From Escherichia coli (GTDB lineage: Bacteria > Pseudomonadota > Gammaproteobacteria > Enterobacterales > Enterobacteriaceae), in the NCBI RefSeq assembly GCF_016903815.1, contig NZ_CP069973.1: a DNA stretch of 64,000 nucleotides; one strand, written 5' to 3'. The position numbers and the translations under genes are program-made. Numbering within the stretch: position 1 is the stretch's first letter; each line of letters begins with the position of its first letter. Below are positions 9,136 to 32,679 of this stretch, one piece after another. The notes under the pieces were generated by a model, which was given only the letters and a program-made list of their open reading frames with translations, was not told the origin of the DNA and did not search any database.

Positions 9136-9142
9136 AAATGTC

Positions 9143-17457: not shown

Positions 17458-17529
17458 CATCCTCGCACTCGCGGGGATTTCTTTTATCTGAACTCGCTAC
17501 GGCGGGTTTTGTTTTATGGAGATGATAAA

Positions 17530-17697: not shown

Positions 17698-17753
17698 GGC
17701 GGTTTTTTATTGCCTGATTTGCAGGTTCGATTCCCTATTCGGAGATAGCACTC

Positions 17754-17954
17754 ATGCAACACGAACTACAGCCTGATTCACTGGTTGATTTGAAATTCAT
17801 CATGGCCGATACTGGCTTTGGTAAAACCTTCATCTATGACCGGATTAAGTCCGGCGACCTTCCTAAAGCCAAAGTTATCCACGGACGAGCAAGATGGTTA
17901 TATCGTGACCATTGTGAATTTAAAAATAAGCTCTTAAGCCGCGCCAATGGGTAA
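17754..17954 (+). CDS. torI: Excisionase / recombination directionality factor, TorI type
   Basis: 66-aa excisionase-family HTH protein immediately inside attR; I recall it as matching K-12 TorI. Confidence 0.7.
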   Translation: MQHELQPDSLVDLKFIMADTGFGKTFIYDRIKSGDLPKAKVIHGRARWLYRDHCEFKNKLLSRANG

Positions 17955-18027
17955 AATAGCGGGTAAAATATTTCTCACATCTAAAAAACACCATTCCAAT
18001 CAATCCCCTGCCGCTTCAAGTAGATGT

Positions 18028-18042
18028 CTGCAGGGGACACCA
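18028..18042 (+). repeat. attR-like direct repeat: 15 bp identical to the 3-prime end of tRNA-Arg (argW), CTGCAGGGGACACCA
   Basis: Exact 15-mer also present at 28336-28350; lies between torI and the next integrase. Confidence 0.7.
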
Positions 18043-18206
18043 TCCCGCTGTACACCAACGTCTACCATTGTCTATAAATCCCATGTAAACATATAAAAAT
18101 AAAGAGATTTTATTCTCATGACGTCCATTTCCGTCTATTGAAATCAAGTAAATCTATGGGGCATAATTAGGGGCATTGCTGGTTCGATTGTATATGTGCC
18201 CCCAAC

Positions 18207-19493
18207 ATGTCCAGAAATACCCTCAACAAATTAACAGACCGTCAGTGCAAAGCAGCTAAGCCACGAGACAAAACTTATAAATTGTCTGATGGTGGTGGTC
18301 TTTATCTTGAAGTATCCCAGACCGGGTCGAAGTATTGGCGAATGAAGTATCGCCGCCCATCAGATAAGAAAGAAGACAGACTTGCTTTTGGTGTATATCC
18401 AACCATTAGCTTACAAGACGCCAGAGAAAAACGAGACAACGCCAAAAAGTTGTTAGTCAAGGGGATAGATCCCAAAGCAGAGCAAAGAGCAGCAAAAGCA
18501 GAAGAAAAAGGCGCATTCACTTTTGAGACAATAGGACGTCAATGGGTTGAAAGCCACCAGATGTGGAACGAAGACCACCGAAAACGCGTACTTAGAAGCC
18601 TTGAAATGTATATTTTCCCTCACATTGGCACTTCGGATATTCGCAAACTGGAGGCGATGACAATTTTACCTTTGTTTAAGAAGGTAGATGACGCCGGGAA
18701 ACACGATACAGCCAACCGACTTAAACAACGAGTTAAGGACATCATACATAGCGCCCGTCTGAGCGGCATTAAGACAGAAATCATCACGAATGATCTCGAT
18801 GTCCGGTTAATGCAATATGAAACTAAGCATCATGCCGCACTACATCCCAGAGATTTACCAGACTTTTTCACTCGATTGGGCAGCTTTAAAGGTAATCCTC
18901 TTACCCGCCTTGCCATTGAGCTAACCATGTTGACATTTGTTCGTTCAAGCGAGTTAAGGTTTGCCCGTTGGAAAGAGTTTGACCTTGATCGGGCTGAGTG
19001 GATTATCCCTAAAAAAAGAGAGCCTATCGATGGTGTGAGGTTTTCCACCCGTGGCACAAAAACGGGAAAAGACGAACATATCGTGCTTCTTAGCCGTCAG
19101 GCTGTTTCTATTGTAAAGCAGTTGAGAGAACTAAGCGGAAGCTACGATGTTGTGTTTCCGAATGAAAGAAACACCAAAGGCGTGATGAGTGAAAACACGG
19201 TAAACAAGGCATTACGCTTAATGGGCTATAACACGCAAGAGGACGTAACTGGACATGGATTCCGTGCCACAGCCTGTAGTTCCCTGATGGAGTCCGGTTT
19301 GTGGCAGGAGGACGCAGTAGAGCGCCAGATGAGCCACAAAGAATATAAAGACGTTAAAAGAGCCTACAAGCACAAGGCTGATTACTTAGAAGAGCGCAAA
19401 CTAATGCTTCAATGGTGGGCAGATTATCTGGACGCCAATCGAGAAATACATATAAGCCCTTACGAGTTCGGAAGGAGAACACGCCGTGACTAA
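18207..19493 (+). CDS. Tyrosine integrase, P4 family
   Basis: 428 aa; P4-type N-terminus (KLTDRQCKAAKPRDKTYKLSDGGGLYLEV) and C-terminal LMLQWWADYLD motif. Confidence 0.9.
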   Translation: MSRNTLNKLTDRQCKAAKPRDKTYKLSDGGGLYLEVSQTGSKYWRMKYRRPSDKKEDRLAFGVYPTISLQDAREKRDNAKKLLVKGIDPKAEQRAAKAEEKGAFTFETIGRQWVESHQMWNEDHRKRVLRSLEMYIFPHIGTSDIRKLEAMTILPLFKKVDDAGKHDTANRLKQRVKDIIHSARLSGIKTEIITNDLDVRLMQYETKHHAALHPRDLPDFFTRLGSFKGNPLTRLAIELTMLTFVRSSELRFARWKEFDLDRAEWIIPKKREPIDGVRFSTRGTKTGKDEHIVLLSRQAVSIVKQLRELSGSYDVVFPNERNTKGVMSENTVNKALRLMGYNTQEDVTGHGFRATACSSLMESGLWQEDAVERQMSHKEYKDVKRAYKHKADYLEERKLMLQWWADYLDANREIHISPYEFGRRTRRD

Positions 19494-20241
19494 GATGACA
19501 GGACTAGATGCGTTTTATAACGAGTCAGAAGATAAAATCTGGTTTGGTAATCTGATCAGCGAACTGGCAAGACTAAACAATGAAAATGAAAGAATGATCG
19601 CTGCCGCTATCTTAAGTAACTACAGATTGAGCAAAGCTAAACCAGATACTTTAGGGGGGCTGGGCTTTTATCAGTTCGATTGGGTATCAGGTTTTACAAC
19701 TAATGACGACTTTGAAAAGCAGTGTGTGGAGTTTTTAGGTCTTCTGGCTATGGGGCATGAATACAGGGAGAGCCCGATACCGGGGGAAGAAGGGACTTTC
19801 AACGTTAGGAAAGGGGAAGACTTTTTATATCACGATGATGAGGATGATTGGTATGGGTCTTACGATTCGTTTTATTTCAAGCGCTCCGAGGTTGTGAACT
19901 TCTTCCCAGAACTGGATATGAATGTTCCAGATAACGAACCAGAAATTGGAGCACTGTCAAAAAAAGTAGAAAGAGAACAAAACTGGAGAGGAAAAGATAC
20001 GGCTTTAAAGATGATCGCCGGAATGGCGATTGCCTTATTTGAATCAAGCAAAGATTTCCATAGTGGAGGAAACCTTAGTATCAATAGGGTTAGTGCCCAA
20101 GTAATAGAAAACAACATAATATTCGGGAACGATGAAGACAGCGATACCCACCCAGATACATTTCGGAGATTGCTAACGAACGCTTTGGATAAGTACGCCC
20201 CCAAATTTAAGAAAAAAGCAACCAAAAAGCGTCCAAAATAA
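19486..20241 (+). CDS. Hypothetical acidic protein coupled to the integrase
   Basis: 251-aa ORF; start overlaps the int stop by 8 bp. Confidence 0.45.
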   Translation: MTKMTGLDAFYNESEDKIWFGNLISELARLNNENERMIAAAILSNYRLSKAKPDTLGGLGFYQFDWVSGFTTNDDFEKQCVEFLGLLAMGHEYRESPIPGEEGTFNVRKGEDFLYHDDEDDWYGSYDSFYFKRSEVVNFFPELDMNVPDNEPEIGALSKKVEREQNWRGKDTALKMIAGMAIALFESSKDFHSGGNLSINRVSAQVIENNIIFGNDEDSDTHPDTFRRLLTNALDKYAPKFKKKATKKRPK

Positions 20242-20397
20242 AGGAAGGATGTTCCCAAATTGTGCGTTAGAACTAAAAAATAACGCCCAATTTGGGGTAA
20301 TTCTATTCCCAAAAATTTTTTCTCCAAATTCACAGAAAACTTAAAAAAACAATGATTTACTATCTCACATAGTCAAGCAACGTATTACGAGGTAGAT

Positions 20398-20589
20398 ATG
20401 AAAAAGTCGCTGATTCGGCTATCTGAGGTTTTGAAACGCACTGGCTATAGCAAGGCGTGGGTATATGCTCTGATGAGCCGAGGACAATTCCCCCAATCAG
20501 TCAAGATTGGTGCTCGCGCAATAGCTTTTATTGAAAGCGAGATCGATGACTGGATCGATCAACGTATAGCCGAATCGCGTAGTAACTAA
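20398..20589 (+). CDS. alpA: AlpA-family transcriptional regulator / excisionase
   Basis: 63 aa; RLSEVLKRTGYSKAWVYALMSRGQFPQSVKIGARAIAFIESEIDDWI is the classic AlpA HTH. Confidence 0.8.
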   Translation: MKKSLIRLSEVLKRTGYSKAWVYALMSRGQFPQSVKIGARAIAFIESEIDDWIDQRIAESRSN

Positions 20590-20637
20590 AGAACAGAAAC
20601 AAACAGGATACAAACAATACGTTATTAGGTATTAAGA

Positions 20638-20829
20638 ATGCAGTTGAAACCTACCAATCAAAAGCTGAACGTAACCCATGTTGATTTTGAAACCTTCGCG
20701 GCACTGATTAGATCAGAGCCACAAAAGGTGAGCACCAGCACCTGGGTTTATGATGTGAAATCCACCAGCGGTGGAAAAGCTATCGGCATTGCCTCTGGCG
20801 ATGATTACTTAGTAATAGATCTGATTTAA
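20638..20829 (+). CDS. Hypothetical protein
   Basis: 63-aa ORF. Confidence 0.3.
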   Translation: MQLKPTNQKLNVTHVDFETFAALIRSEPQKVSTSTWVYDVKSTSGGKAIGIASGDDYLVIDLI

Positions 20830-20910
20830 TCGCACAAAAATTGTAGAGTAATTTGGGGAGACAGGAAGTCTCCTCCATATTACATTTTGGTACAACAGTA
20901 AGGGAATAAA

Positions 20911-21105
20911 ATGATTAATTACCTGACCGCTAAAGACGCAGCAGAATATCTTGGCGTCTGTCTGTCACGCTTCTATCAGTTAAAGCGATATATCCGAAGC
21001 TTTCCTCCCTATATAAATCAGACCATCAATGGACGCAAGCGCCGGGTGTGGCTTGCCTCCAGCCTTGATCAATTTGCCGACAGATTTCTGGGGGGACGAA
21101 AATGA
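20911..21105 (+). CDS. Hypothetical small protein, possible HTH
   Basis: 64-aa ORF with LTAKDAAEYLGVCLSRFYQL (HTH-like). Confidence 0.4.
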   Translation: MINYLTAKDAAEYLGVCLSRFYQLKRYIRSFPPYINQTINGRKRRVWLASSLDQFADRFLGGRK

Positions 21106-21488
21106 GCACTCTTACACGCTCTCAGGTCGCCGCGAATATACGCGATATCCTACTAAGTGGCAGGAAGCTTACCCCAAAAGAGTTTGACGACATATTAAGG
21201 AAAGCCGGAAATCACGAACGTAGTCGCGTTTTAACGCTGTTACGCAACGATTGGGGAATTCCTGTTGAGCAGTTTAAAACAGAGGCGTATCACGTCACAG
21301 AACGCAATTTAGAAGCATACCACAGCGATAAAGACGAAACATTGAAGATCTGGAGGACGAACGCCAGATATGTAAAGACATTGCGTAAGGTAAACATAAC
21401 GTTGTCGTTGTTGCGTGGGCTGGTGGGTAAAGTGCCTGAAGACACGCTTAGAACTGTTTACAAGGGTATTGAAACCAAATACCTGTGA
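21102..21488 (+). CDS. Hypothetical protein
   Basis: 128-aa ORF, 4-bp overlap with the upstream gene. Confidence 0.4.
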   Translation: MSTLTRSQVAANIRDILLSGRKLTPKEFDDILRKAGNHERSRVLTLLRNDWGIPVEQFKTEAYHVTERNLEAYHSDKDETLKIWRTNARYVKTLRKVNITLSLLRGLVGKVPEDTLRTVYKGIETKYL

Positions 21489-21556
21489 TTGACAAAGCAG
21501 AAAGCCGACTTTGCGAGAGTCGGCTTTGAAGCAATTGAAATATATGAACTTTACAC

Positions 21557-22609
21557 ATGGAATTATACGATAAAGACGCGAGTCTATCCACAAAATCACA
21601 AGCCGTAATCAATCACATCAATGGTCGCACATTAGCTTATGTGAGATCAGTTACGCACAAACGTAATGAATTAAAGGCGGAGAATAAACGCCAATCATCA
21701 AAGGCTAACCACTGCATACCACCAGCTTGGACAAAGAAGAAATGGCGTACAATGAGGCGAGCTTTGTTTACTCTGGATGTCGAATCAACTAGTGGTATCC
21801 CCTACTCCTTTACCTTCAGACCCGTTAAGGGAACAACGCCAGAGAAATTCAACAAAGCGTTAAAGGCACTTACCAGATGGTTGACTTCGAAAGGCAATCA
21901 GTGGGTTTACGTCATGGAGTGGGCTCAACACCAGTCAGAGCCGCATGTACACGCAATAATTATGGTGAACGAAAGAAGCATTAATGGGCAAGCAGGCAAA
22001 ATTGTCAGCAAATGGGTAACACTGGCAAACAATGCAATCCCATCAAATGTTCCTCCCCAGTGGGATCTAGATTTGAAAGGTCAGCAATATTCAGAGCCTA
22101 CAAGGTGTATAGGTAAACAGATTGATTACATGGCAAAACCCGAAACTAAGTTAAATGACTTTAATAGAGAGGCGAGCAAGAGCCTATATGATTGGTCAGA
22201 TGCCAACGTTTGGGGTTATTCGAATGGCTGGGCGCGGCATGAGATAAAAAAAGAAACACTTTCTATCACTGGCTTTCATGCTGTAAGACGCATACTAAAA
22301 GCCATTCAGGCATCAAGGAAAGACAACTACAAAGTTAAGCGACAGATACAGCGTACATTGAAACGACAAGACATAAATCGCTCACCAATCACCCCGTTCC
22401 AAGCACCGTTAATTAGCAAACACGATTGGGATTTATCAGTGATAGCGGTCACCAAAGAGGCAGAGACAGAGCGCAGGGAGTTACTATCCTCACAGACAAT
22501 AAACTCGAACAAAGTACAAACCCACCCGCTGTTAAGGATGTTAAGAAAAGCACGAGTGAGAGCATCCAGAGCCAGAAGAGAAAGCGGAGGTTATGACCAT
22601 TACTACTAG
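21557..22609 (+). CDS. Putative rolling-circle replication initiator (HUH endonuclease)
   Basis: 350 aa with an HUH-like motif (EPHVHAIIMV) and tyrosine-rich region; family assignment is from motif only. Confidence 0.45.
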   Translation: MELYDKDASLSTKSQAVINHINGRTLAYVRSVTHKRNELKAENKRQSSKANHCIPPAWTKKKWRTMRRALFTLDVESTSGIPYSFTFRPVKGTTPEKFNKALKALTRWLTSKGNQWVYVMEWAQHQSEPHVHAIIMVNERSINGQAGKIVSKWVTLANNAIPSNVPPQWDLDLKGQQYSEPTRCIGKQIDYMAKPETKLNDFNREASKSLYDWSDANVWGYSNGWARHEIKKETLSITGFHAVRRILKAIQASRKDNYKVKRQIQRTLKRQDINRSPITPFQAPLISKHDWDLSVIAVTKEAETERRELLSSQTINSNKVQTHPLLRMLRKARVRASRARRESGGYDHYY

Positions 22610-23407
22610 TAGTGACAGATCGTGACAAGGCAGAGCAAAAAACGACCAATATAAGAGAAATATCCCTGCCCAATCGCCAAAAGCGCGGAGCGCGGAGCGC
22701 GGCAAGCGCCGCGAGAGGCGCAAGAAGGCGAACCTATCCATTGAAACGGTCAGAAGAGCGCATCGCGCTCGATGACCGAAGTCCCCACTAACACCGTTAA
22801 CGAAAGATCAAAGTCTTAGAAAAAAATGACGTTTCTTTGAAGGGCTTCCATCCGTAAAAATCAAATTTTGAGATAAAGTACTTATAGAAATTAATCACTC
22901 TATAAGAGTGAGTTGACGTGAGTTTGAAGTGAGCAACATATTAAAAATATATATAATAATCAAACATATAATAACAACTACTGAGCAAAAATCACCAGAA
23001 AACAACGTCAACGTAACGTCACTCTGTAAGCACTTTTTCAGTCACTTTTTGGGTTGAATACACGTATAAATCCCCAACCATGAAATTTGAGCGCGTAAGC
23101 ACGACTCTGAAAGGCTTTTTATCTTTTAACCATTTAATATACCTGAGGTATTGAAGAAGATTCTGAGACATATACTAGAACTTTACCGTGCACGACTAAC
23201 AACATAAACGTTATATTTATATATAAATCAATGAGATAAATACATCCCCATCCAAAAAACAAGCATAACGCAAAATTGCGTTATCAACTTAAAAGGTACG
23301 ATTGAATCTGACAGTCTGCTCTGAGCGAAATGTGGGCACGTTCACCATAAGTCTCCAGATTGAAACGAAATGATAGTGTTAAATGTTCGATAGTTACTTT
23401 TCTAAGC

Positions 23408-24400
23408 TCAACGTTCGTAATAGTAATCCGACACCTCAGTAAAATCTATTTCCTCCCTAGAAAGTAATGATTCCATCTCATCTAGTTTATCGATTTGAGG
23501 CAAAACACTTGTTGGTGAAATCACAACATTAAAGTCCTCATTATATCGGTGACCTACCCTTGTGAGCTCTTTACCTAATTGCAACAATATATAATCACGT
23601 AAAATAAGTTGATTCCGTCTAAATCGAATAAGACGATAGTAATGGAAGAAATCAGAACATTTTGATGAATCATAATTTCTACCATTCCACCCGGTTTTCC
23701 TCGTAGCTCGGAATAATGCTTGCTCTTGCGTATTTTTCCAAATGCTAAAATCAAAGTGACTTTTCGGGTTAGGATTTTCGTATGTTGCTTGAGGATAAAA
23801 ATTAGTAACACCAAATTGATGCTTGTCAATGATCTTTAAAGTCCGATTTTGTTCAGACAACATCCGCCTTAAGGACCTAGGAATTTCGAAACGCATTAGT
23901 TTGTTTTTATCCAAGATTCTTAATTCTCTTGGAAGCATCTCATGATCCCGTTCTAAATATCTTTCACACCGTTTCGGCACATACTGAAAATACACTGAAA
24001 AAAAACAAAATATATTATCAGAAACGAGAGGAGTAATATGTATTTTTTCTTGCTCAGGAACGTTTTGAACAAAATAGTATGCCGTTCCTTGCCAAATCAA
24101 CGATTGCGCTACTGCCTCCACCAATTCACGTATTGTTTCATCTACCGAGTATTTCCTATATCTAGCTTGTAAATTTCCAAACATTTTACGTATGAGTTCT
24201 TCGTCGTTAGTTTCGACTTGAAACAAATTGGTATCACCGTGATTTACAAAATTAAAAACTCTAGCAAAATCCTCATAAAACATCCTTTGATAGAAACCTG
24301 GTCGTTCATTCTTAGACTTGGTCAATAGTCTATCAACAAAACTTAATTGCTCAGGATCGACGCTATAACCGTAAAGGGGTATATTCTTGATAATTTTCAT
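23408..24400 (-). CDS. Unclassified 330-aa soluble protein, downstream gene of the cargo operon
   Basis: Long ORF with AAGGA Shine-Dalgarno; start ATG overlaps the upstream stop as ATGA; no TM segment and no catalytic motif recognised. Confidence 0.6.
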   Translation of the reverse strand: MKIIKNIPLYGYSVDPEQLSFVDRLLTKSKNERPGFYQRMFYEDFARVFNFVNHGDTNLFQVETNDEELIRKMFGNLQARYRKYSVDETIRELVEAVAQSLIWQGTAYYFVQNVPEQEKIHITPLVSDNIFCFFSVYFQYVPKRCERYLERDHEMLPRELRILDKNKLMRFEIPRSLRRMLSEQNRTLKIIDKHQFGVTNFYPQATYENPNPKSHFDFSIWKNTQEQALFRATRKTGWNGRNYDSSKCSDFFHYYRLIRFRRNQLILRDYILLQLGKELTRVGHRYNEDFNVVISPTSVLPQIDKLDEMESLLSREEIDFTEVSDYYYER

Positions 24401-26874
24401 TCAAAATCCTTATCGTATTCCACGCCAAAACGACGAGCCAACTCACTAACATGGTAATCGATCTTGAAGTCAATTTGCTCGAGTTGCGGGAAAATTTCGA
24501 GAGCACAAAAGAGATGCGATGCATCTGAATGGGAGTTTAAGAACTCTCTGACAACTTTGTTCGTATGAGATTTCCCTCGATTCATTCCCATTTGATCGCT
24601 AAAGCCATCATGTCTTGCGCGGCGCTCAAATTCCATTTTCCAGTTAAGACGAATCATATCTCTCGGTGATGCGCACAAGCTGAAATTGCGCGGATTTGAA
24701 AGAATCATCATTCTCTTCAAATACTGCTGTTTGTTGGGAACAGACTCGAGCCAAGACTTAAACCTATCAAGTACTGTTTTAGATAGTTTTGCATTATCGA
24801 AATAAGCACTGTAAAGGATAGCAAAACCTAGAACTGACATCAGATCGTTGATCGCGGATGAAAGGAGATGCAGTCGAAACTCGTTGTTTATATCGAGTTT
24901 CGGATCTACAAATTTGGTATCTGATGCCAGCAATGAGAGAACCATGAACATAGGGAATACCTTGCTCAGTTTATTTTCATCATTCTGTTCAAGCGCATGT
25001 ATACATTCCTCAGCCAACTCAAAATATATCTGTCCAAAATGATCCGGTAGTTCATCATCTTGCTCTTGTTCAATGATATGTCCCACAATTTCCACCCTAC
25101 CAAGAATAGCTATAGCTTCATCCTGTGTAACGACAAACTGTTTGAGCATTTCAGCAATATTAATTTCTGGTAATGCGTATAGCTTTTCAGAGTAGTGCTC
25201 GTACTTTCTGTATCTCTCCAAGAGCAGAGAAAGTTCATTAAACCAATGGGGAAACTTCAAATGATTATGTAGGCTAGCGAGAACGACTTGCGTTGCGGCT
25301 TCCGGCATCTTCATGTTTATCAGTGAGTTAACGAAATCTGGAACCATGTTTACGTGAAAATCGCATACTTCTGGCAGAATTTTAGAATATTGTTGTAATA
25401 ACTTCTGAACCGCCAACTGCTGGACGTACTTTGGTTTGGATAATCTCTGTCCTTCAATCTCTTTTTCGAATTCGATACGTTCTACGATAAAGGCCAACTC
25501 AACCTGCAGAAAAGCAGGCAAAGTGTGTAGAGAGGTCTCTGTCCAGATATCATCTTTAAAGAACTGCTCCAATTCTTTCTCAAAAGTAATCATGCGGCGT
25601 AACATTTCAAGGCAAAGATTGCTGCCTAATGCAGCCCATGCATCCGCAATTCCAACTTTTATCACCTTTTCCTCAAAATAATTAACGACATCAGACGGTG
25701 TAAAGGCTTTTTCAATGATCGTCTTCATTTTCCGAAGTTCACGTATACCAATATCGAACTGAAACTGTTGTGCATAAGTTAATATACGAGATGAGAATAG
25801 ACTGATGAGATCCAACCCGAGCTTGAAATCACCGGCTTTGAATGCAAGTTCAATATGGCCTACCAACCTATTGATAATTTCATTCTCTAACCAAAGATAA
25901 TTTGGTTCTTCTTCAACCGTTAATTGGCTCCTTGTTTTTAAAGCAATGGATGTTACACTGTCGCCAGCTAAGAACCATTGCTTATGTTTTATTCGTCTAG
26001 GGAACCAGTAACTTTGATAATCAATTCTGTGTTTCTGATTAAGGTAATGAAGAAGTAATGCCGAATAAACATTACTGAGAGCAGGTAAATTATCTCCGAG
26101 TCCTACTTTTTCACATATCAGGCGATCATCAATGTAGTTTAACTGCTCAAAGGCCAAATGTGCGGCTTTAGAGTGATGATTAGCTAAAGATACTGAATTC
26201 TTGGGATTAGACGCACCTTCGATGTGTCGTGCAATTCGTGGGAGTATTTCACTTCGGGCTAACTGATTTAGGTCAAAAAAATTGAATAATCTTTGACCTA
26301 ATGGGAACAGAGCTAAGGAACTAACAAGTGTCAGCAATGTTCCCATTGCATAAACGAAAAGACCGGGTTCAACCCCGAACAAGTGGAGAGCAGTTGCACT
26401 AAGACAAAACACCGCAGAAAGCACTAAAGTCCGCGAATACACATTACCTACCTGCTCGGTAGTAAGCATTTGTATAATATCTCGCCGAAGTCTGGTATAT
26501 CCTGTACTTAGAATGATACCTATTGTAGCAAAGTATATTGAAAATATAGCGGTAAGTATCTGTGCGTACAACCTAAGTTGATCAATATTAAATTTTTTTT
26601 CATCATAGCTAAGAGGATGAAGCAAAATCGTATTATTCCGAATATAATCTTCAACAAAACCCAGTGCAAATAACGTTAATATGACCCATAACAAATTTTT
26701 TAAACCTACCAACGCAAAAGACATAAAAACATGAGCGTTAGACTTAGCTTTAAAAACAGACGTACGATGTATGTATGACGCACGTTCTAAAATAAATCTA
26801 ACCCTCACAAGATCTGTTCTTAATTTCCAGAACCACTTTTGAGAAATAAGCCAAACCTTCATTATATCAATCAA
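24397..26874 (-). CDS. Unclassified 825-aa membrane-anchored protein (about four N-terminal TM helices plus a roughly 630-aa helical cytoplasmic region)
   Basis: Uninterrupted 2.5-kb ORF in AT-rich DNA; hydrophobic segments near residues 50-74, 102-124, 148-168 and 172-192; no Walker or nuclease motif seen. The track start is TTG; the first ATG is at 26862. Confidence 0.6.
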   Translation of the reverse strand: MIDIMKVWLISQKWFWKLRTDLVRVRFILERASYIHRTSVFKAKSNAHVFMSFALVGLKNLLWVILTLFALGFVEDYIRNNTILLHPLSYDEKKFNIDQLRLYAQILTAIFSIYFATIGIILSTGYTRLRRDIIQMLTTEQVGNVYSRTLVLSAVFCLSATALHLFGVEPGLFVYAMGTLLTLVSSLALFPLGQRLFNFFDLNQLARSEILPRIARHIEGASNPKNSVSLANHHSKAAHLAFEQLNYIDDRLICEKVGLGDNLPALSNVYSALLLHYLNQKHRIDYQSYWFPRRIKHKQWFLAGDSVTSIALKTRSQLTVEEEPNYLWLENEIINRLVGHIELAFKAGDFKLGLDLISLFSSRILTYAQQFQFDIGIRELRKMKTIIEKAFTPSDVVNYFEEKVIKVGIADAWAALGSNLCLEMLRRMITFEKELEQFFKDDIWTETSLHTLPAFLQVELAFIVERIEFEKEIEGQRLSKPKYVQQLAVQKLLQQYSKILPEVCDFHVNMVPDFVNSLINMKMPEAATQVVLASLHNHLKFPHWFNELSLLLERYRKYEHYSEKLYALPEINIAEMLKQFVVTQDEAIAILGRVEIVGHIIEQEQDDELPDHFGQIYFELAEECIHALEQNDENKLSKVFPMFMVLSLLASDTKFVDPKLDINNEFRLHLLSSAINDLMSVLGFAILYSAYFDNAKLSKTVLDRFKSWLESVPNKQQYLKRMMILSNPRNFSLCASPRDMIRLNWKMEFERRARHDGFSDQMGMNRGKSHTNKVVREFLNSHSDASHLFCALEIFPQLEQIDFKIDYHVSELARRFGVEYDKDFE

Positions 26875-27055
26875 GTGATACCTGCCTTCTCATCTCTACA
26901 TGCAACATAAAAATGCTTACTATGGTGGCAAACAAAATCAAGAATCATATGTTTGAACACTTTTTACGCACGAATTATCCGGTGTAAGATACTTATAGTC
27001 AAATGGCAGGGCTAATCTCATCTGTATTGAGCTATTAACAGCCATATGTAAGACT

Positions 27056-27084
27056 AAGAAACGCGCCCAGCAAAGGCGCGTTCT
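27056..27084 (-). terminator. Hairpin terminator after the small minus-strand ORF
   Basis: ACGCGCC-TTTGCTG-GGCGCGT stem-loop followed by a T-rich tract on the minus strand. Confidence 0.4.
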
Positions 27085-27264
27085 GCATCAGGTAAGTTTG
27101 CTGGGGTCTACGGTTTCCATCCAATCTGGAGCAATTCCCAAACGTTCCGCTATCTCTTCGTTGGTCATGTCTTCAGTTGAGAAATTAGCCAGAGAATCGT
27201 TAACTTCAGGATAGTCAGGGGAGAGTAACAGGTATTCCCGCAACGCTTTCAGATCTTTTTCCAT
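27085..27264 (-). CDS. Small ORF (59 aa) upstream of the cargo operon, not on the ORF track
   Basis: My own translation MEKDLKALREYLLLSPDYPEVNDSLANFSTEDMTNEEIAERLGIAPDWMETVDPSKLT; followed on the minus strand by a hairpin. Confidence 0.3.
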
Positions 27265-27431
27265 TTTAACGCTCCTTGTTTATTGACAGTCGAACGATGG
27301 TGAAGATTCTTGCCATCTCAAGTACAGGCAAGAAAATCCACCAGAACACCAAATTATCTCATAAGGTTAAATCGGTGTCGGGCTATTTCTTTCGGCTAGG
27401 TGAGTGTACCGCCTTAACCACCGGCAATTAT

Positions 27432-27564
27432 CATTGTCTCAATTGGGTATACCGTAATGACAAGGTGATACAAAGTCTCAATAGGGTTGTATAGGAACAT
27501 TTTGACTACACAAAATGCATTATGTATCATTTGCACTTATATTCACAACCCTATTGAGACAATG
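27432..27564. promoter_or_regulatory. res-like repeat cluster directly upstream of the serine recombinase gene
   Basis: 16-bp inverted repeat GTCTCAATAGGGTTGT (27475-27490) / ACAACCCTATTGAGAC (27545-27560) plus a partial direct copy CATTGTCTCAAT at 27432-27443. Confidence 0.45.
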
Positions 27565-27566
27565 CA

Positions 27567-28193
27567 ATGAACGTTAGAATTTACTGCCGAGCATCAACTG
27601 AGGGGCAACACGCTGATCGAGCACTTACCAGCCTACGTGAATTTTCAAAATCAAAAGGCTGGCAGATTGCAGGAGAGTATATAGAAAATGCTAGCGGGGC
27701 GAAGCTTGAGCGCGTAGAGCTTATGCGGCTATTGTCTGAAGCCCAGTCCGGCGATCTGTTGCTAGTGGAAGCTATAGATCGTCTGAGTCGCCTAGAACAT
27801 AGCGCATGGGTCGAACTGAAAGATACGCTCAACCGAAAAGGGTTAATCATCGTATCAATGGATTTACCAACGAGCTGGCAGATGGTCGAGATGGCAGGCA
27901 ATGACCTAACCAGCGGCATCCTGAGAGCCGTAAATGCCATGTTGATTGATATCCTTGCCACAATGGCACGGCAGGATTACGAAACACGTCGTAAACGCCA
28001 ACAGCAAGGCATTGAGCGAGCTAAAAGCGAAGGAATATACATTGGCAGGGAGAAAAATCAGGAAGCCCGAGAGATCGTTAGAGAGATGTTGGAGCAAGGA
28101 GTAAAACCTGAACTCATCATGAAGGCAGCAGGAATCAGCCGAGCGACTTACTACCGTATAAAAAGTGAGCTGTCAGTCGTAAAATCAGAATAA
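27567..28193 (+). CDS. Serine recombinase (resolvase/invertase family)
   Basis: 208 aa; N-terminal VRIYCRASTEGQ catalytic-serine motif and C-terminal HTH. Confidence 0.85.
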   Translation: MNVRIYCRASTEGQHADRALTSLREFSKSKGWQIAGEYIENASGAKLERVELMRLLSEAQSGDLLLVEAIDRLSRLEHSAWVELKDTLNRKGLIIVSMDLPTSWQMVEMAGNDLTSGILRAVNAMLIDILATMARQDYETRRKRQQQGIERAKSEGIYIGREKNQEAREIVREMLEQGVKPELIMKAAGISRATYYRIKSELSVVKSE

Positions 28194-28327
28194 CCTTTGA
28201 AAGGTCGTCAGGCTTGTTTCATCTGCTAAAAGCCAGCATTTCTGACCATAATACCTGGGGGCACCTACTGGGGCACCCACCAAAATCGAAAGACAAATAA
28301 GTTATAATTCAATCTGTTAGTTTACTT

Positions 28328-28350
28328 TTCGATTCCTGCAGGGGACACCA
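28328..28350 (+). repeat. attR direct repeat: 23 bp identical to the argW 3-prime end, TTCGATTCCTGCAGGGGACACCA
   Basis: Matches the recalled 3-prime end of E. coli tRNA-Arg (argW); shares a 15-mer with 18028-18042. Confidence 0.8.
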
Positions 28351-28790
28351 GATACCCTTCAAACCAAATCTACCTTCACCCCGTAAAAGATGGGTTTGGC
28401 GCACACTAGCCCTATATCTACTCATTTTTACTGCAACAGGTTGAAATCTCAGCACTGTCAGAAAGCGCTGATGACTAAACAGCCCTGGGCCGGGCGATGT
28501 AACCATCATACAGAATCCTGATAGCGAAATATGGCGTGACTCGATACTTCACTCTGCAATGCATTCCTTGATGAATTCGCAGGCCCGTGATACTCGGGAC
28601 AGGTCGCTGAATGACGACAATGTCCTGGAAATCAGCGAACCGCGTATCCGGAGTACATTTGAGCGACTGTACCAGAACATGAATGAGGCGTTTGGATTAG
28701 GTGATTATTAGTTGGGCTAAGCATTTTTGTATTATTATTTTCCGGTTGAGGGATATGGAGATATCGACAACAACCGGAAAAAGTTTACGT

Positions 28791-30038
28791 CTATATTGCT
28801 GAAGGTACAGGCGTTTCCATAACTATTTGCTCGCGTTTTTTACTCAGGAAGAAAATGCCAAATAGCAACATCAGGCAGACAATACCCGAAATTGCGAAGA
28901 AAACTGTCTGGTAGCCTGCGTGGTCAAAGAGTATCCCAGTCGGCGTTGAAAGCAGCACAATCCCAAGCGAACTGGCAATTTGAAAACCAATCAGAAAGAT
29001 CGTCGACGACAGGCGCTTATCAAAGTTTGCCACGCTGTATTTGAAGACGGATATGACACAAAGTGGAACCTCAATGGCATGTAACAGCTTCACTAATGAA
29101 ATAATCCAGGGGTTAACGAACAACGCGCAGGAAAGGATACGCAACGCCATAATCACAACACCGATAAGTAATGCATTTTTTGGCCCTACCCGATTCACAA
29201 AGAAAGGAATAATCGCCATGCACAGCGCTTCGAGTACCACCTGGAATGAGTTGAGATAACCATACAGGCGCGTTCCTACATCGTGTGATTCGAATAAACC
29301 TGCATAAAAGACAGGAAAGAGTTGTTGATCAAAAATGTTATAGAAAGACCACGTCCCCACAATAAATATGACGAAAACCCAGAAGTTTCGATCCTTGAAA
29401 ACTGCGATAAAATCCTCTTTTTTTACCCCTCCCGCATCCGCCGCTATGCACTGGTGATCCTTATCTTTAAAACGCATGTTGATCATCATAAATACAGCGC
29501 CAAATAGCGAGACCAACCAGAAGTTGATATGGGGACTGATACTAAAAAATATACCGGCAAAGAACGCGCCAATAGCATAGCCAAAAGATCCCCAGGCGCG
29601 CGCTGTTCCATATTCGAAATGAAAATTTCGCGCCATTTTTTCGGTGAAGCTGTCAAGCAAACCGCATCCCGCCAGATACCCCAGGCCAAAAAAGAGCGCC
29701 CCCAGAATTAGACCTACAGAAAAATTGCTTTGCAGTAACGGTTCATAAACGTAAATCATAAACGGTCCGGTCAAGACCAGAATGAAACTCATACACCAGA
29801 TGAGCGGTTTCTTCAGACCGAGTTTATCCTGAACGATGCCGTAGAACATCATAAATAGAATGCTGGTAAACTGGTTGACCGAATAAAGTGTACCTAATTC
29901 CGTCCCTGTTAATCCTAGATGTCCTTTCAGCCAAATAGCGTATAACGACCACCACAGCGACCAGGAAATAAAAAAGAGAAATGAGTAACTGGATGCAAAA
30001 CGATAGTACGCATTTCTGAATGGAATATTCAGTGCCAT
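28791..30038 (-). CDS. cscB: Sucrose:proton symporter (MFS, LacY-like)
   Basis: 415-aa 12-TM protein with a LacY-like N-terminus, in the csc gene order. Confidence 0.85.
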   Translation of the reverse strand: MALNIPFRNAYYRFASSYSFLFFISWSLWWSLYAIWLKGHLGLTGTELGTLYSVNQFTSILFMMFYGIVQDKLGLKKPLIWCMSFILVLTGPFMIYVYEPLLQSNFSVGLILGALFFGLGYLAGCGLLDSFTEKMARNFHFEYGTARAWGSFGYAIGAFFAGIFFSISPHINFWLVSLFGAVFMMINMRFKDKDHQCIAADAGGVKKEDFIAVFKDRNFWVFVIFIVGTWSFYNIFDQQLFPVFYAGLFESHDVGTRLYGYLNSFQVVLEALCMAIIPFFVNRVGPKNALLIGVVIMALRILSCALFVNPWIISLVKLLHAIEVPLCVISVFKYSVANFDKRLSSTIFLIGFQIASSLGIVLLSTPTGILFDHAGYQTVFFAISGIVCLMLLFGIFFLSKKREQIVMETPVPSAI

Positions 30039-30099
30039 AATTACCTGCCTGTCGTTAAAAAATTCATGTCCTATTTAGAGATAAGAGCGGCCTCGCCGT

Positions 30100-31023
30100 T
30101 TACTTCTCACCTTCCAGTTCTTGTCGACATGGCAGCGCTGTCATTGCCCCTTTCGCTGTTACTGCAAGCGCTCCGCAACGTTGAGCGAGATTGATAATTC
30201 GTCGCATTTCTCTCTCATCTGTAGATAATCCCGTAGAGGACAGACCTGTGAGTAACCCGGCAACGAACGCATCTCCCGCCCCAGTGCTATCGACACAATT
30301 CACAGACATTCCAGCAAAATGGTGAACTTGTCCTCGATAACAGACCACCACCCCTTCTGCACCTTTAGTCACCAACAGCATGGCGATCTCATACTCTTTT
30401 GCCAGCGCGCATATATCCCGATCGTTCTGTGTTTTTCCACTGATAAGTCGCCATTCTTCTTCCGAGAGCTTGACGACATCCGCCAGTTGTAGCGCCTGCC
30501 GCAAACACAAGCGGAACAAATGCTCGTCTTGCCATAGATCTTCACGAATATTGGGATCGAAGCTGACAAAACCTCCGGCATGCCGGATCGCCGTCATCGC
30601 AGTAAATGCGCTGGTACGCGAAGGCTCGGCAGACAACGCAATTGAACAGAGATGTAACCATTCGCCATGTCGCCAGCAGGGCAAGTCTGTCGTCTCTAAA
30701 AAAAGATCGGCACTGGGGCGGACCATAAACGTAAATGAACGTTCTCCTTGATCGTTCAGATCGACAAGCACCGTGGATGTCCGGTGCCATTCATCTTGCT
30801 TCAGATACGTGATATCGACACCCTCAGTTAGCAGCGTTCTTTGCATTAACGCACCAAAAGGATCATCACCGACCCGACCTATAAACCCACTTGTTCCGCC
30901 TAATCTGGCGATTCCCACCGCAACGTTAGCTGGCGCGCCGCCAGGACAAGGCAGTAGCCGCCCGTCTGATTCTGGCAAGAGATCTACGACCGCATCCCCT
31001 AAAACCCATACTTTGGCTGACAT
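30100..31023 (-). CDS. cscK: Fructokinase (PfkB family)
   Basis: 307 aa; ribokinase-family motifs (GDAVVD, DSTGAGDAFVAG). Confidence 0.9.
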   Translation of the reverse strand: MSAKVWVLGDAVVDLLPESDGRLLPCPGGAPANVAVGIARLGGTSGFIGRVGDDPFGALMQRTLLTEGVDITYLKQDEWHRTSTVLVDLNDQGERSFTFMVRPSADLFLETTDLPCWRHGEWLHLCSIALSAEPSRTSAFTAMTAIRHAGGFVSFDPNIREDLWQDEHLFRLCLRQALQLADVVKLSEEEWRLISGKTQNDRDICALAKEYEIAMLLVTKGAEGVVVCYRGQVHHFAGMSVNCVDSTGAGDAFVAGLLTGLSSTGLSTDEREMRRIINLAQRCGALAVTAKGAMTALPCRQELEGEK

Positions 31024-31128
31024 TTTTTTCCCTTAAATTCATCTGACTTACGCATAGTGATAAACCTCTTTTTCGCAAAATCGTCATGGATTTACTAAAA
31101 CATGCATATTCGATCACAAAACGTCATA

Positions 31129-31204
31129 GTTAACGTTAACATTTGTGATATTCATCGCATTTATGAAAGTAATGGACTTTATTTTTATAAAAGTTAACGT
31201 TAAC
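31129..31204. promoter_or_regulatory. Two identical 12-bp palindromes GTTAACGTTAAC (31129-31140, 31193-31204) in the cscK-cscA divergent promoter region; candidate CscR operators
   Basis: Perfect palindromes 64 bp apart between divergent csc genes, typical of LacI-family operators. Confidence 0.45.
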
Positions 31205-31229
31205 AATTCACCAAATTTGCTTAACCAGG

Positions 31230-32672
31230 ATGATAAAAATGACGCAATCTCGATTACATGCGGCGCAAAACGCACTAGCAAAACTTCACGAGCGCCGAGG
31301 TAACACTTTCTATCCCCATTTTCACCTCGCGCCTCCTGCCGGGTGGATGAACGATCCAAACGGCCTGATCTGGTTTAACGATCGTTATCACGCGTTTTAT
31401 CAACATCACCCGATGAGCGAACACTGGGGGCCAATGCACTGGGGACATGCCACCAGCGACGATATGATCCACTGGCAGCATAAGCCTATTGCGCTAGCGC
31501 CAGGAGACGAGAATGACAAAGACGGGTGTTTTTCAGGTAGTGCTGTCGATGACAATGGTGTCCTCTCACTTATCTACACCGGACACGTCTGGCTCGATGG
31601 TGCAGGTAATGACGATGCAATTCGCGAAGTACAATGTCTGGCTACCAGTCGGGATGGTATTCATTTCGAGAAACAGGGTGTGATCCTCACTCCACCAGAA
31701 GGAATCATGCACTTCCGCGATCCTAAAGTGTGGCGTGAAGCCGACACATGGTGGATGGTTGTCGGGGCGAAAGATCCAGGCAACACGGGGCAGATCCTGC
31801 TTTATCGCGGCAGTTCATTGCGTGAATGGACCTTCGATCGCGTACTGGCCCACGCTGATGCGGGTGAAAGCTATATGTGGGAATGTCCGGACTTTTTCAG
31901 CCTTGGCGATCAGCATTATCTGATGTTTTCCCCGCAGGGAATGAATGCCGAGGGATACAGTTACCGAAATCGCTTTCAAAGTGGCGTAATACCCGGAATG
32001 TGGTCGCCAGGACGACTTTTTGCACAATCCGGGCATTTTACTGAACTTGATAACGGGCATGACTTTTATGCACCACAAAGCTTTTTAGCGAAGGATGGTC
32101 GGCGTATTGTTATCGGCTGGATGGATATGTGGGAATCGCCAATGCCCTCAAAACGTGAAGGCTGGGCAGGCTGCATGACGCTGGCGCGCGAGCTATCAGA
32201 GAGCAATGGCAAACTTCTACAACGCCCGGTACACGAAGCTGAGTCGTTACGCCAGCAGCATCAATCTATCTCTCCCCGCACAATCAGCAATAAATATGTT
32301 TTGCAGGAAAACGCGCAAGCAGTTGAGATTCAGTTGCAGTGGGCGCTGAAGAACAGTGATGCCGAACATTACGGATTACAGCTCGGCACTGGAATGCGGC
32401 TGTATATTGATAACCAATCTGAGCGACTTGTTTTGTGGCGGTATTACCCACACGAGAATTTAGATGGCTACCGTAGTATTCCCCTCCCGCAGGGTGACAT
32501 GCTCGCCCTAAGGATATTTATCGATACATCATCCGTGGAAGTATTTATTAACGACGGGGAGGCGGTGATGAGTAGCCGAATATATCCGCAGCCAGAAGAA
32601 CGGGAACTGTCGCTCTATGCCTCCCACGGAGTGGCTGTGCTGCAACATGGAGCACTCTGGCAACTGGGTTAA
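31230..32672 (+). CDS. cscA: Sucrose-6-phosphate hydrolase / invertase (GH32)
   Basis: GH32 motifs WMNDPNG, FRDP and WECPD. Confidence 0.9.
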   Translation: MIKMTQSRLHAAQNALAKLHERRGNTFYPHFHLAPPAGWMNDPNGLIWFNDRYHAFYQHHPMSEHWGPMHWGHATSDDMIHWQHKPIALAPGDENDKDGCFSGSAVDDNGVLSLIYTGHVWLDGAGNDDAIREVQCLATSRDGIHFEKQGVILTPPEGIMHFRDPKVWREADTWWMVVGAKDPGNTGQILLYRGSSLREWTFDRVLAHADAGESYMWECPDFFSLGDQHYLMFSPQGMNAEGYSYRNRFQSGVIPGMWSPGRLFAQSGHFTELDNGHDFYAPQSFLAKDGRRIVIGWMDMWESPMPSKREGWAGCMTLARELSESNGKLLQRPVHEAESLRQQHQSISPRTISNKYVLQENAQAVEIQLQWALKNSDAEHYGLQLGTGMRLYIDNQSERLVLWRYYPHENLDGYRSIPLPQGDMLALRIFIDTSSVEVFINDGEAVMSSRIYPQPEERELSLYASHGVAVLQHGALWQLG

Positions 32673-32679
32673 CATAATA

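What the first reader, a model, noticed from the sequence alone, without database searches (positions are those of the whole stretch)
23408..26874. Unclassified two-gene operon: 825-aa four-TM protein plus 330-aa soluble partner, as cargo of an argW-integrated island
Two long minus-strand ORFs are translationally coupled: the downstream ATG overlaps the upstream stop as ATGA at 24397-24400, with an AAGGA Shine-Dalgarno in front. The DNA is visibly AT-rich compared with the flanking genes (estimated by eye, not computed), which points to recent horizontal acquisition. The large protein has about four hydrophobic helices in its first 195 residues, followed by a roughly 630-residue Leu/Glu/Lys-rich, predicted helical region with no Walker A/B, HxH, PD-(D/E)xK, HEPN or cyclase motif that I can find. 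The small protein has no TM segment and no recognisable motif. The pair sits in the variable cargo position of a P4-like integrase island, between the replication genes and a serine recombinase; such positions in P4-like and PICI-like elements are known hotspots for anti-phage systems. A membrane-anchored protein with a soluble partner fits an abortive-infection or membrane-effector defence model, but that function is inferred from context only.
Basis: partly seen in the sequence, partly recalled or inferred. Interest (0 to 1): 0.88.

Follow-up and report, generated by a model that had tools for sequence, protein, structure and literature searches.

The report
Membrane protein paired with portal-like partner
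A swappable two-gene cassette on a small E. coli island encodes a membrane-anchored helical-repeat protein and a partner predicted to fold like a phage portal protein; the pair is widespread, unnamed and untested, and is most likely a new anti-phage module.

Summary
Two overlapping minus-strand genes (825 aa and 330 aa, ATGA overlap, AAGGA SD) form one AT-rich operon. It fills a 3.9-kb swappable cassette (about 23125-27056) in a 10.3-kb island (18028-28350) bounded by argW 3'-end repeats. argW itself is outside the window, and the island is not a P4-like satellite.

The two genes were adjacent in 30 of 30 assessable loci, down to 21-28% identity, and one homologue is a natural fusion. The large-protein superfamily has 841 clusters at 50% identity.

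In sister islands the same slot carries GAPS6 (a validated anti-phage system), an HNH endonuclease or a ParA-like ATPase. Elsewhere the pair sits beside R-M, Hachiman-like, AbiE and RnlAB genes.

Best reading: a new membrane-tethered, portal-mimicking anti-phage module. Function and mechanism are inferred, not shown.

The parts
18023..18042 (+). Left att repeat of the island: a degenerate copy of the argW 3' end, with the 15-nt core CTGCAGGGGACACCA at 18028-18042
   Evidence: Direct repeat D3. In strain KY1497 the complete tRNA-Arg(CCU) ends here and runs into the same island sequence.
18207..19493 (+). Island tyrosine integrase (428 aa, CP4-57/P4-type family)
   Evidence: RefSeq annotation; PHROG 1 integrase at E 2e-55; NCBIfam PRK09692 at E 2e-69, below the curated cutoff.
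21557..22609 (+). Island rolling-circle replication-associated protein. This is conserved backbone on the left flank of the cargo slot.
   Evidence: RefSeq product name. It is conserved in sister islands up to window 23072/23124.
23125..27056 (.). Swappable cargo cassette, 3.9 kb and AT-rich. It contains exactly the two-gene operon with its own promoter and terminator.
   Evidence: blastn breakpoints against sister islands L009, L010, L011 and L014. GC 0.36-0.39.
23265..23284 (-). Terminator-like hairpin plus T-run, about 125 nt after the small gene's stop codon
   Evidence: Consensus scan. This is a pattern match only.
23408..24400 (-). Small subunit gene (330 aa, soluble, pI 8.2), predicted portal-like fold. 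Tentative map, inferred from the secondary-structure order: wing about 60-172; stem helix 175-193; clip about 194-217 with the conserved THENPNP motif; stem helix 218-233; tunnel-loop-like 234-249 with invariant G237, W238 and R241; long basic helix 250-283; crown 303-329.
24397..24400 (-). ATGA stop/start overlap (translational coupling), with the AAGGA Shine-Dalgarno at 24411-24407
   Evidence: Direct reading of the sequence.
24397..26874 (-). Large subunit gene (825 aa from TTG 26874). It has a basic cytoplasmic N-terminal helix, four TM helices (53-71, 106-124, 150-168, 172-190) and a cytoplasmic alpha-solenoid of about 630 residues.
26974..27002 (-). Sigma-70-like promoter for the operon (TTGACT-17-GATAAT, 10 of 12 matches)
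   Evidence: Consensus scan. This is a pattern match only. It lies inside the cassette, just downstream of the preceding gene's terminator.
27059..27083 (-). Intrinsic terminator of the conserved 58-aa backbone gene (27088-27264, minus strand). It marks the right edge of the cassette.
   Evidence: for the terminator. Homology to sister islands resumes at 27057.
27567..28193 (+). Small serine recombinase (208 aa, invertase/resolvase type). This is conserved backbone on the right flank of the cargo slot.
   Evidence: RefSeq annotation; PHROG 125 DNA invertase at E 2e-40. It is present in 549 E. coli genomes with different cargos.
28331..28350 (+). Right att repeat, an exact copy of the last 20 nt of argW (GATTCCTGCAGGGGACACCA). 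This is the right end of the island.
   Evidence: It is identical to the 3' end of tRNA-Arg(CCU) in L008. Sister-island homology ends at 28350.

Best explanation
The cassette encodes a two-subunit complex on the cytoplasmic face of the inner membrane. I think its most likely role is to protect the cell or its host element against phages.

The 825-aa protein anchors in the membrane through four TM helices. It presents a roughly 630-residue alpha-solenoid in the cytoplasm. The 330-aa portal-fold protein docks on that solenoid.

Proposed mechanism (inferred): the portal-like subunit acts as a membrane-tethered mimic of a phage portal. Phage proteins that normally engage the portal vertex bind the decoy instead. 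These could be the terminase-DNA complex, scaffolding or capsid proteins, or head-completion proteins. That would either divert head assembly and packaging, or signal through the solenoid to the TM domain, which would permeabilise the membrane and abort the infection.

Shown here: the operon structure, the cassette boundaries, strict co-inheritance of the two genes, one natural fusion, the predicted topology and folds, and the mobile, defence-linked context.

Inferred: complex formation, anti-phage function, which subunit senses and which acts, and the decoy mechanism.
For: Single module:
- ATGA overlap and SD.
- The small gene directly follows the large gene in 30 of 30 assessable loci.
- This includes relatives with only 21-28% identity, whose partners are still homologous (E 3e-20 and 5e-10).
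- Hit P0335 is a fusion of large (8-778) plus small (853-1140), hhalign 99.75%, E 2.4e-27.

Same compartment: N-in, 4TM, C-in topology puts the solenoid in the cytoplasm with the soluble partner.

Portal fold:
- AlphaFold DB models of family members superpose at TM 0.96, and annotated portal proteins are recovered at E 5e-8.

Scaffold or sensor-like large subunit: only HEAT/TPR/designed-repeat matches and no enzyme fold.

Defence context:
- The identical slot holds GapS6a/b in strain G47-1, and GAPS6 is validated. Other strains have an HNH endonuclease or a ParA-like protein with a weak PDC-M28B hit.
- Neighbours elsewhere: Type I R-M (L017, L039), Type IIG R-M (L018), a HamA/helicase set (L002), AbiEii and peptidase U49 (L005), RnlAB (L040-42), nSTAND3-Mrr and AbiGi (L043), PDC-M60A (L034).

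Mobility:
- 58-68% identity across Alpha-, Beta- and Gammaproteobacteria and Desulfobacterales.
- Only 2.8% of complete E. coli genomes carry it, nearly all at 99% identity or more.

Precedent (from memory): several defence systems sense phage structural or packaging proteins, for example Avs with portal and terminase, and CapRel or Lit with capsid protein. T4 portal assembly starts on the inner membrane.
Against: - No phenotype has been tested, so defence is guilt by association.
- The association is not universal. A Pfam census of 147 neighbours in 21 species-representative loci was mixed, with many housekeeping genes. Several loci are isolated insertions.
- Ring formation, binding between the subunits and any effect on the membrane could not be tested.
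- No toxic or enzymatic effector domain is visible.
- Superfamily-invariant polar residues in the large subunit (E326, E466, D607) could mark an unrecognised active site, which the decoy model does not explain.
- The P0335 fusion is a single metagenomic protein and could be a frameshift or gene-calling artefact.
Confidence: 0.4

Rival explanations
1. Superinfection exclusion at DNA entry. The complex sits at the inner membrane, and the portal-like subunit, possibly as a ring with a basic channel, binds incoming phage DNA or ejection proteins at the cytoplasmic face. This blocks genome translocation without killing the cell. It would be functionally analogous to Kiwa or to prophage Sie proteins.
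For: - Membrane anchoring with a cytoplasmic partner.
- The tunnel-loop-like segment (pI 9.8) and the long helix 250-283 (pI 10.4) are basic and carry the deepest invariant residues, G237, W238 and R241. That would suit DNA contact.
- The pair sits at prophage-chromosome junctions next to integrases in Vibrio, Proteus and another enterobacterium. From memory, this is a typical position for exclusion genes.
Against: - No DNA-binding domain is recognised.
- Ring formation is untested.
- The pair is rare on viral contigs (3 of 2.9 million IMG/VR contigs) and absent from sequenced phages. It is therefore not a typical phage-borne exclusion gene.
- Nothing in the data tells early action from late action.
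Confidence: 0.2
2. The pair is not an anti-phage system. It is a selfish or accessory module of mobile elements. One option is an addiction pair, with a membrane toxin and a neutralising partner. Another is a DNA-handling device that helps the carrier element transfer or persist.
For: - It is always found on or next to mobile elements: integrases, serine recombinases, rolling-circle Rep genes and IS elements.
- It has spread horizontally across classes.
- One E. coli genome has an IS1 inserted in the operon, consistent with a costly gene.
- The neighbour census is only modestly enriched for defence genes.
Against: - At 825 plus 330 aa the proteins are far larger than classical toxin-antitoxin pairs.
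- There is no ATPase or relaxase to drive DNA transfer.
- The module travels on very different vehicles as interchangeable cargo, and it shares its slot with a validated defence system.
- Addiction and defence are not mutually exclusive.
Confidence: 0.15
3. The portal resemblance is a prediction artefact or convergence. The pair would then be a conserved membrane complex with an unrelated cellular role, such as envelope stress or transport regulation, that happens to be mobile.
For: - There is no sequence-level portal signal.
- The only Pfam hint is a marginal DUF2254 'predicted membrane protein' match, in 2 of 68 members at E near 1e-3.
- AF2 model confidence varies between models.
- Many neighbours are housekeeping genes.
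Against: - Independent AlphaFold DB models give the same fold at TM 0.96.
- Patchy distribution (2.8% of E. coli genomes), low GC and cassette swapping argue against a housekeeping role.
Confidence: 0.1

Closest known systems
Phage and GTA portal proteins (for example 80alpha, lambda gpB, HK97, SPP1 gp6, RcGTA Rcc01684)
   Different: - No sequence-profile similarity to any portal family.
- Not in a head-morphogenesis module. No terminase or capsid gene lies nearby in any of about 30 loci.
- It is obligately paired, and once fused, with a 4TM membrane protein.
- It is absent from sequenced phage genomes.
- The oligomeric state is unknown.
RexA/RexB of phage lambda (a two-gene, membrane-acting abortive infection system)
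   Same: The architecture and lifestyle are similar. A four-TM inner-membrane protein and a soluble cytoplasmic partner are encoded together on a mobile element. The Rex description is from memory of the literature. The proposed logic, in which the soluble sensor activates a membrane effector, is the same.
   Different: - No homology: Pfam and PADLOC searches were negative.
- The membrane subunit here is about six times larger and carries a 630-residue solenoid.
- The partner has a portal fold.
- Gene order is membrane protein first.
Kiwa (KwaA/KwaB)
   Same: A 4TM membrane protein is coupled to a soluble partner of about 310-330 aa, in a two-gene operon found in defence islands. It is a membrane-embedded complex that, from memory of recent literature, acts where phage meets the membrane.
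   Different: - No KwaA, KwaB or DUF4868 match.
- The large subunit has a long cytoplasmic solenoid that KwaA lacks.
GAPS6 (GapS6a/GapS6b) and the other cargos of the same argW-island slot
   Same: They occupy exactly the same slot, between the Rep gene and the serine recombinase, in sister islands. GAPS6 is a validated two-gene anti-phage system.
   Different: The proteins are unrelated. GapS6b is a TPR plus PINc RNase protein. The pair here has no NCBIfam hit, although NCBIfam does hold the GapS6 models.
Avs4 and other systems that sense phage portal or terminase
   Same: Conceptually both centre on the phage portal and packaging interface. A large helical-repeat domain is a plausible recognition surface.

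Membership tests
Phage portal protein | Portal core fold (wing, stem, clip, crown) | tested here: met
Phage portal protein | Sequence-profile membership in a portal family (Pfam or PHROGs) | tested here: not met
   No Pfam hit. No PHROG hit for the window protein at E up to 1. No portal PHROG among the hits for ten diverse relatives at E up to 10; every hit was to a family of unknown function.
Phage portal protein | Encoded in a head-morphogenesis module beside terminase and capsid genes | tested here: not met
   The cassette contains only the two genes. No terminase or capsid genes lie beside the pair in the loci examined. tblastn found no match in 50,697 phage records.
Phage portal protein | Dodecameric ring with a central DNA channel | not testable with these tools
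Known anti-phage defence systems (PADLOC-DB v2, NCBIfam 2026) | Significant match of either protein to a defence-system model | tested here: not met
   Zero PADLOC and zero NCBIfam families for both proteins at E up to 1. Caveat: PADLOC v2 also misses GapS6a/b, so it does not cover systems described after 2023.
Candidate defence system (guilt by association) | Recurrent placement in variable hotspots or next to known defence genes, on mobile elements, with patchy distribution | tested here: met
   The slot is shared with GAPS6, HNH and ParA-like cargos. R-M, Hachiman-like, AbiE, RnlAB, nSTAND3 and PDC neighbours occur in at least 8 independent loci. The pair is in 2.8% of E. coli genomes. However, the neighbour census across 21 loci was mixed.
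RexAB-type membrane abortive infection pair | Homology to RexA or RexB | tested here: not met
   No Pfam-A or PADLOC match.
RexAB-type membrane abortive infection pair | Four-TM membrane protein plus a soluble partner in one mobile-element operon | tested here: met
   Four TM segments, N-in and C-in, and no TM segment in the partner. Coupled operon.
RexAB-type membrane abortive infection pair | Phage-triggered membrane depolarisation and growth arrest | not testable with these tools
   Needs an infection experiment.
Kiwa (KwaA/KwaB) | KwaA family membrane protein and DUF4868 KwaB | tested here: not met
   No PADLOC or Pfam match.
P4-like satellite | P4-family tyrosine integrase at a tRNA gene | tested here: inconclusive
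   PRK09692 integrase model at E 2e-69, scoring 234 bits against a cutoff of 434. Integration at argW is confirmed.
P4-like satellite | P4 alpha primase-helicase and helper-manipulation genes (Psu, Sid, delta, epsilon) | tested here: not met
   The backbone is integrase, hypothetical proteins, HTH proteins, a rolling-circle Rep and a small serine recombinase. None of the P4 genes is annotated or detected.
DUF2254 (PF10011, predicted membrane protein) | Significant Pfam match | tested here: inconclusive
   The window protein has no match. Only 2 of 68 superfamily members match at E near 1e-3. Two UniRef names carry the label.

The most novel reading that the evidence does not exclude
A widespread bacterial two-gene immune module is built around an exapted viral portal protein. 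The portal-fold subunit assembles on a membrane-anchored solenoid. It acts as a decoy portal vertex that captures the phage packaging or head-assembly machinery, or the incoming genome, and couples this to a membrane response. This would be the first case of the portal fold working outside a capsid, and the first immune sensor that works by mimicking a virion component rather than binding one.
Probability: 0.3. Interest if true: 0.9.

Novelty: categorically new. Interest (0 to 1): 0.8.

Why it matters
If the pair is an anti-phage system, it adds a large uncharacterised family to bacterial immunity. The large-protein superfamily has 841 clusters at 50% identity, and structural relatives of the small protein appear in Proteobacteria, Firmicutes, Actinobacteria, Bacteroidota and CPR.

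It would also introduce a new principle: immunity built from a copy of a viral structural fold and tethered to the membrane.

The portal fold is regarded as a hallmark of tailed phages, herpesviruses and GTAs. A deep cellular or island-borne lineage of it, always partnered with a membrane protein, bears on how viral parts are recruited by hosts, or possibly the reverse.

In practical terms, the work defines a clean 3.9-kb cassette with its native promoter that can be cloned directly. It also defines an argW-island slot whose alternative cargos (an HNH endonuclease, a ParA-like ATPase, a 470-aa O157:H7 protein) are further defence candidates.

Tried and rejected
- Sequence family searches of both proteins (Pfam, NCBIfam, PADLOC, PHROGs, PDB sequences) gave nothing beyond noise.

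- PD-(D/E)xK reading of the invariant PDHFG motif in the large subunit: the region is helical in the model and there is no ExK at the proper spacing. Rejected.

- P4-like satellite label: rejected apart from the integrase family.

- 'Prophage moron' reading: weakened. The pair lies beyond the integrases at prophage-chromosome junctions. It is almost absent from IMG/VR (3 loci, each at a contig end) and absent from INPHARED phages.

- The search for related loci with the very diverse alignment A2 failed because no stretch was conserved enough. I repeated it with A4.

- The third homologous-protein run, with a mixed alignment, listed only close relatives and added little.

- The Pfam census of neighbours returns only the top 20 families and was less decisive than hoped.

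- Literature searches found nothing relevant. I searched for portal-like, portal decoy or portal mimic proteins in defence, DUF2254, the two RefSeq accessions, and an argW defence hotspot.


Full report
**Observation.** The upstream stop TGA overlaps the downstream ATG as ATGA at 24397-24400, and AAGGA lies 6 nt before the ATG. RefSeq starts the large gene at the internal ATG 26862 (821 aa). Close homologues begin MIDxxxxW, which matches translation from the TTG at 26874, so the 825-aa call is preferred. GC is 0.36-0.39 across 23-27 kb, against 0.43-0.45 in the island backbone and about 0.50 in the flanking chromosome. A 10/12 sigma-70-like promoter (27002-26974) and a terminator-like hairpin with a T-run (23284-23265) bracket the operon. 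The upstream 58-aa gene has its own terminator at 27083-27059. These three are consensus matches only.

**The island.** ARAGORN finds no tRNA in the window. A direct repeat ending in CCA flanks a 10.3-kb segment: 18023-18042 (degenerate copy) and 28331-28350. In strain KY1497 the same integrase lies directly after a tRNA-Arg with anticodon CCU next to yfdC, which is argW. The tRNA's last 20 nt equal the right-hand repeat, and the sequence after it equals window 18043 onward. In the window's strain type, a lambdoid prophage ending in torI sits between argW and the island, so the two elements form a tandem array. 'argW-integrated island' is therefore right, although argW is not in the window.

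The backbone is a CP4-57/P4-type tyrosine integrase (PRK09692, E 2e-69, below cutoff), several small HTH or hypothetical genes, a rolling-circle Rep, a 58-aa gene and a small serine invertase/resolvase. No P4 primase or helper-manipulation genes are present, so it is not a P4-like satellite.

**A swappable slot.** blastn against sister islands shows homology ending at window 23072-23124 and resuming at 27057. The variable segment, about 23125-27056, contains exactly this operon with its promoter and terminator. In other strains the same slot holds:
- GapS6a/GapS6b (L010);
- a ParA-family ATPase with a weak PDC-M28B hit (L009);
- an HNH endonuclease (L014);
- a 470-aa hypothetical in O157:H7 EDL933 (L011).

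Among complete E. coli genomes, 151 of 5426 carry the pair, always on the chromosome and nearly all at 99% identity or more. The integrase is present in 221 genomes and the recombinase flank in 549.

**No known family.** Both proteins have zero hits in PADLOC and NCBIfam, nothing significant in Pfam, and only noise in PHROGs. Profile searches of PDB sequences found nothing meaningful. PADLOC v2 also fails to detect GapS6a/b, so a PADLOC negative does not exclude recently described systems. NCBIfam (2026) does hold the GapS6 models, and it too is negative for the pair. Full-text searches for the accessions, DUF2254, portal-like, portal decoy or portal mimic proteins in defence, and an argW hotspot found no description of the pair.

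**The family and its co-inheritance.** Close relatives of both proteins are found in Enterobacterales, Vibrio, Halomonas/Vreelandella, Alteromonas, Nitrosomonas, several Alphaproteobacteria and Desulfobacterales. Identities are 63-74% for the large protein and 52-63% for the small. Similarity this high across classes indicates horizontal spread.

An exhaustive search of 1.84 billion cluster representatives found 841 clusters related to the large protein at E 0.001 or better. Most are 840-890 aa and match full length at 20-28% identity.

In 30 of 31 loci the small gene follows the large gene directly. The exception is cut by a contig end. This holds for distant relatives with 21-28% identity in the large protein, whose partners (324-333 aa) are still homologous to the window's small protein at E 3e-20 and 5e-10. 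One representative, P0335 (1145 aa), is a fusion: residues 8-778 match the large protein and residues 853-1140 match the small-protein profile at hhalign probability 99.75% and E 2.4e-27. This points to a physical 1:1 complex. The caveat is that a single metagenomic fusion could be an artefact.

Residues invariant across the superfamily are W12, Y273, I280, S284, W286, W324, E326, E466, P606, D607 and G610. They could mark an interface or an unrecognised active site, and they remain unexplained. DUF2254 matches only 2 of 68 members marginally.

Foldseek against AFDB50 is an independent check. AlphaFold DB models of family members superpose on my model at TM 0.96. There are 249 hits at E 0.001 or better; of the 50 shown, most are uncharacterised proteins of about 250-340 aa, from Proteobacteria, Clostridia, Actinobacteria, Bacteroidota and CPR. 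An annotated 'Phage portal protein' appears at E 5e-8.

The order of secondary-structure elements fits a minimal portal, and this mapping is my inference:
- a beta-rich wing, about 60-172;
- stem helix 175-193;
- a short clip with the conserved THENPNP motif;
- stem helix 218-233;
- a basic tunnel-loop-like segment carrying the deepest invariants G237, W238 and R241;
- a 34-residue basic helix, 250-283;
- a small C-terminal crown.

There is no sequence-level link to portal families. There is none to Rep_trans or the island Rep either, so I rejected the 'Replication initiation factor' label on two AFDB hits. The protein has no match in 50,697 phage records.

**Context elsewhere.** The pair lies:
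- next to a Lactamase_B, Trypsin-HamA and DEAD-helicase set and an IS3 transposase in Pragia;
- next to a large serine recombinase element in Hyphococcus;
- near AbiEii/DUF6088 and a Lit-like peptidase U49 in Vibrio fluvialis;
- directly after a Type I R-M operon in a metagenomic relative;
- between a prophage integrase with RnlA/RnlB and core genes in V. cholerae;
- at icd-integrated prophage junctions in Proteus and another enterobacterium, once in tandem with an nSTAND3-Mrr plus AbiGi cassette;
- next to Type I R-M (Nitrosomonas), Type IIG R-M (Desulfobacterales) and the candidate system PDC-M60A (Vreelandella);
- in a serine-recombinase plus Rep_trans element in a 21%-identity relative.

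Against this, a Pfam census of 147 neighbours from 21 species-representative loci was mixed, with many housekeeping genes. Only 3 of 2.9 million IMG/VR contigs carry the pair, each at a contig end. The module is thus island-borne or junction-borne cargo rather than a true phage gene. Its defence association is real but not universal.

**Interpretation.** What is shown: a self-contained, horizontally mobile, deeply co-inherited two-gene module, sitting in a slot and in neighbourhoods used by defence systems. It consists of a 4TM protein with a cytoplasmic solenoid and a partner predicted to have a portal fold.

What I infer: the two form a complex on the cytoplasmic face of the membrane and act against phages, and the portal-like subunit is the part that meets the phage. 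My preferred mechanism (confidence about 0.4) is a membrane-tethered portal decoy. It would capture proteins that normally dock on the portal vertex, such as terminase-DNA, scaffold or capsid proteins, or head-completion proteins. It would then either divert assembly and packaging or trigger the TM domain to abort the infection.

Rivals:
- exclusion of incoming DNA at the membrane (0.2);
- a selfish addiction or DNA-handling module of mobile elements (0.15);
- an unrelated membrane complex whose portal resemblance is artefact or convergence (0.1).

No available tool could test oligomerisation, subunit binding or phenotype.

**Comparison and novelty.**
- By fold, the closest known proteins are phage portals. 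Membership fails on sequence profile and on genomic context, and the ring state is untestable here.
- By architecture, the closest systems are RexAB and Kiwa, each a 4TM protein with a soluble partner. There is no homology to either.
- By position, the closest is GAPS6, whose proteins are unrelated.

I found no described system that uses a portal-fold protein outside a capsid. I therefore rate the module as categorically new in kind while stressing that its function is untested.

**Verdict.** Its defence reading is strengthened but still contextual. Its island label needs correction. The portal-like fold of the 'featureless' partner makes the finding more interesting than originally described. 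Interest: 0.8.

Noticed in passing
window 1-18042; locus L001: A lambdoid prophage fills the left part of the window. Its genes include RusA, NinB/E/F, a toprim replication protein, cII/cro/cI-like regulators, Ral, Kil, RecT and a DUF551 protein. It ends with torI (17754-17954) just before the degenerate argW repeat, so prophage and island form a tandem array at argW. K-12 strains share only the roughly 86-nt junction 17960-18045.
   Followed up: partly
L010 20597-24223; L009 19305-20369; L014 9485-10672; L011 9433-10845: The same island slot carries other cargos in other strains. These are GapS6a/b, a ParA-family ATPase (weak PDC-M28B hit), a 395-aa HNH endonuclease and a 470-aa hypothetical in O157:H7 EDL933. 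The last three have no strong PADLOC match and are themselves untested defence candidates.
   Followed up: partly
NZ_OZ501684.1 (hits H2 and H61), corresponding to window about 26000-27100: One complete E. coli genome has an IS1A insertion inside the 5' part of the large gene or its promoter. Another (H1, NZ_CP173463.1) has a roughly 56-bp insertion that splits the annotation into four hypothetical proteins. These look like occasional inactivation of the operon.
   Followed up: no
L043 2448-11405 (Proteus mirabilis): Short icd (Iso_dh) gene fragments are repeated on both sides of two small cassettes, which lie in tandem next to an icd-integrated prophage. One cassette holds a 147-aa gene with nSTAND3-Mrr and AbiGi. 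The other holds a 147-aa gene with the pair. This suggests mini-cassettes that reuse the prophage att site.
   Followed up: no
window 28500-28700 and 28791-33873: Just right of the island's att repeat there is a DUF4942 gene fragment, followed by the csc sucrose operon (cscB/K/A/R) and a truncated dsdX. Sister strains without csc have dsdC-dsdX directly after the repeat. The csc block is therefore a separate insertion at this junction.
   Followed up: no
large protein residues (821-aa numbering) 12, 273-296, 324-326, 466, 606-610: A set of residues is invariant across a superfamily that is otherwise only 20% identical: W12, Y273, I280, S284, W286, W324, E326, E466, P606, D607 and G610. It includes a PDHFG motif in a helical region. 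No known active-site pattern fits.
   Followed up: partly
window 21557-22609: The mechanical ORF for the rolling-circle Rep is 350 aa, but RefSeq annotates 285 aa (L001 18453-19310, which is window 21752-22609). PHROG 30534 matches only residues 136-350, so the true start is uncertain.
   Followed up: no
L047 12548-13828; L017 11534-13193: In two distant relatives, further unannotated genes follow the pair on the same strand: a 426-aa gene in one, and 226-aa and 298-aa genes in the other. Some branches of the family may therefore be three-gene systems.
   Followed up: no
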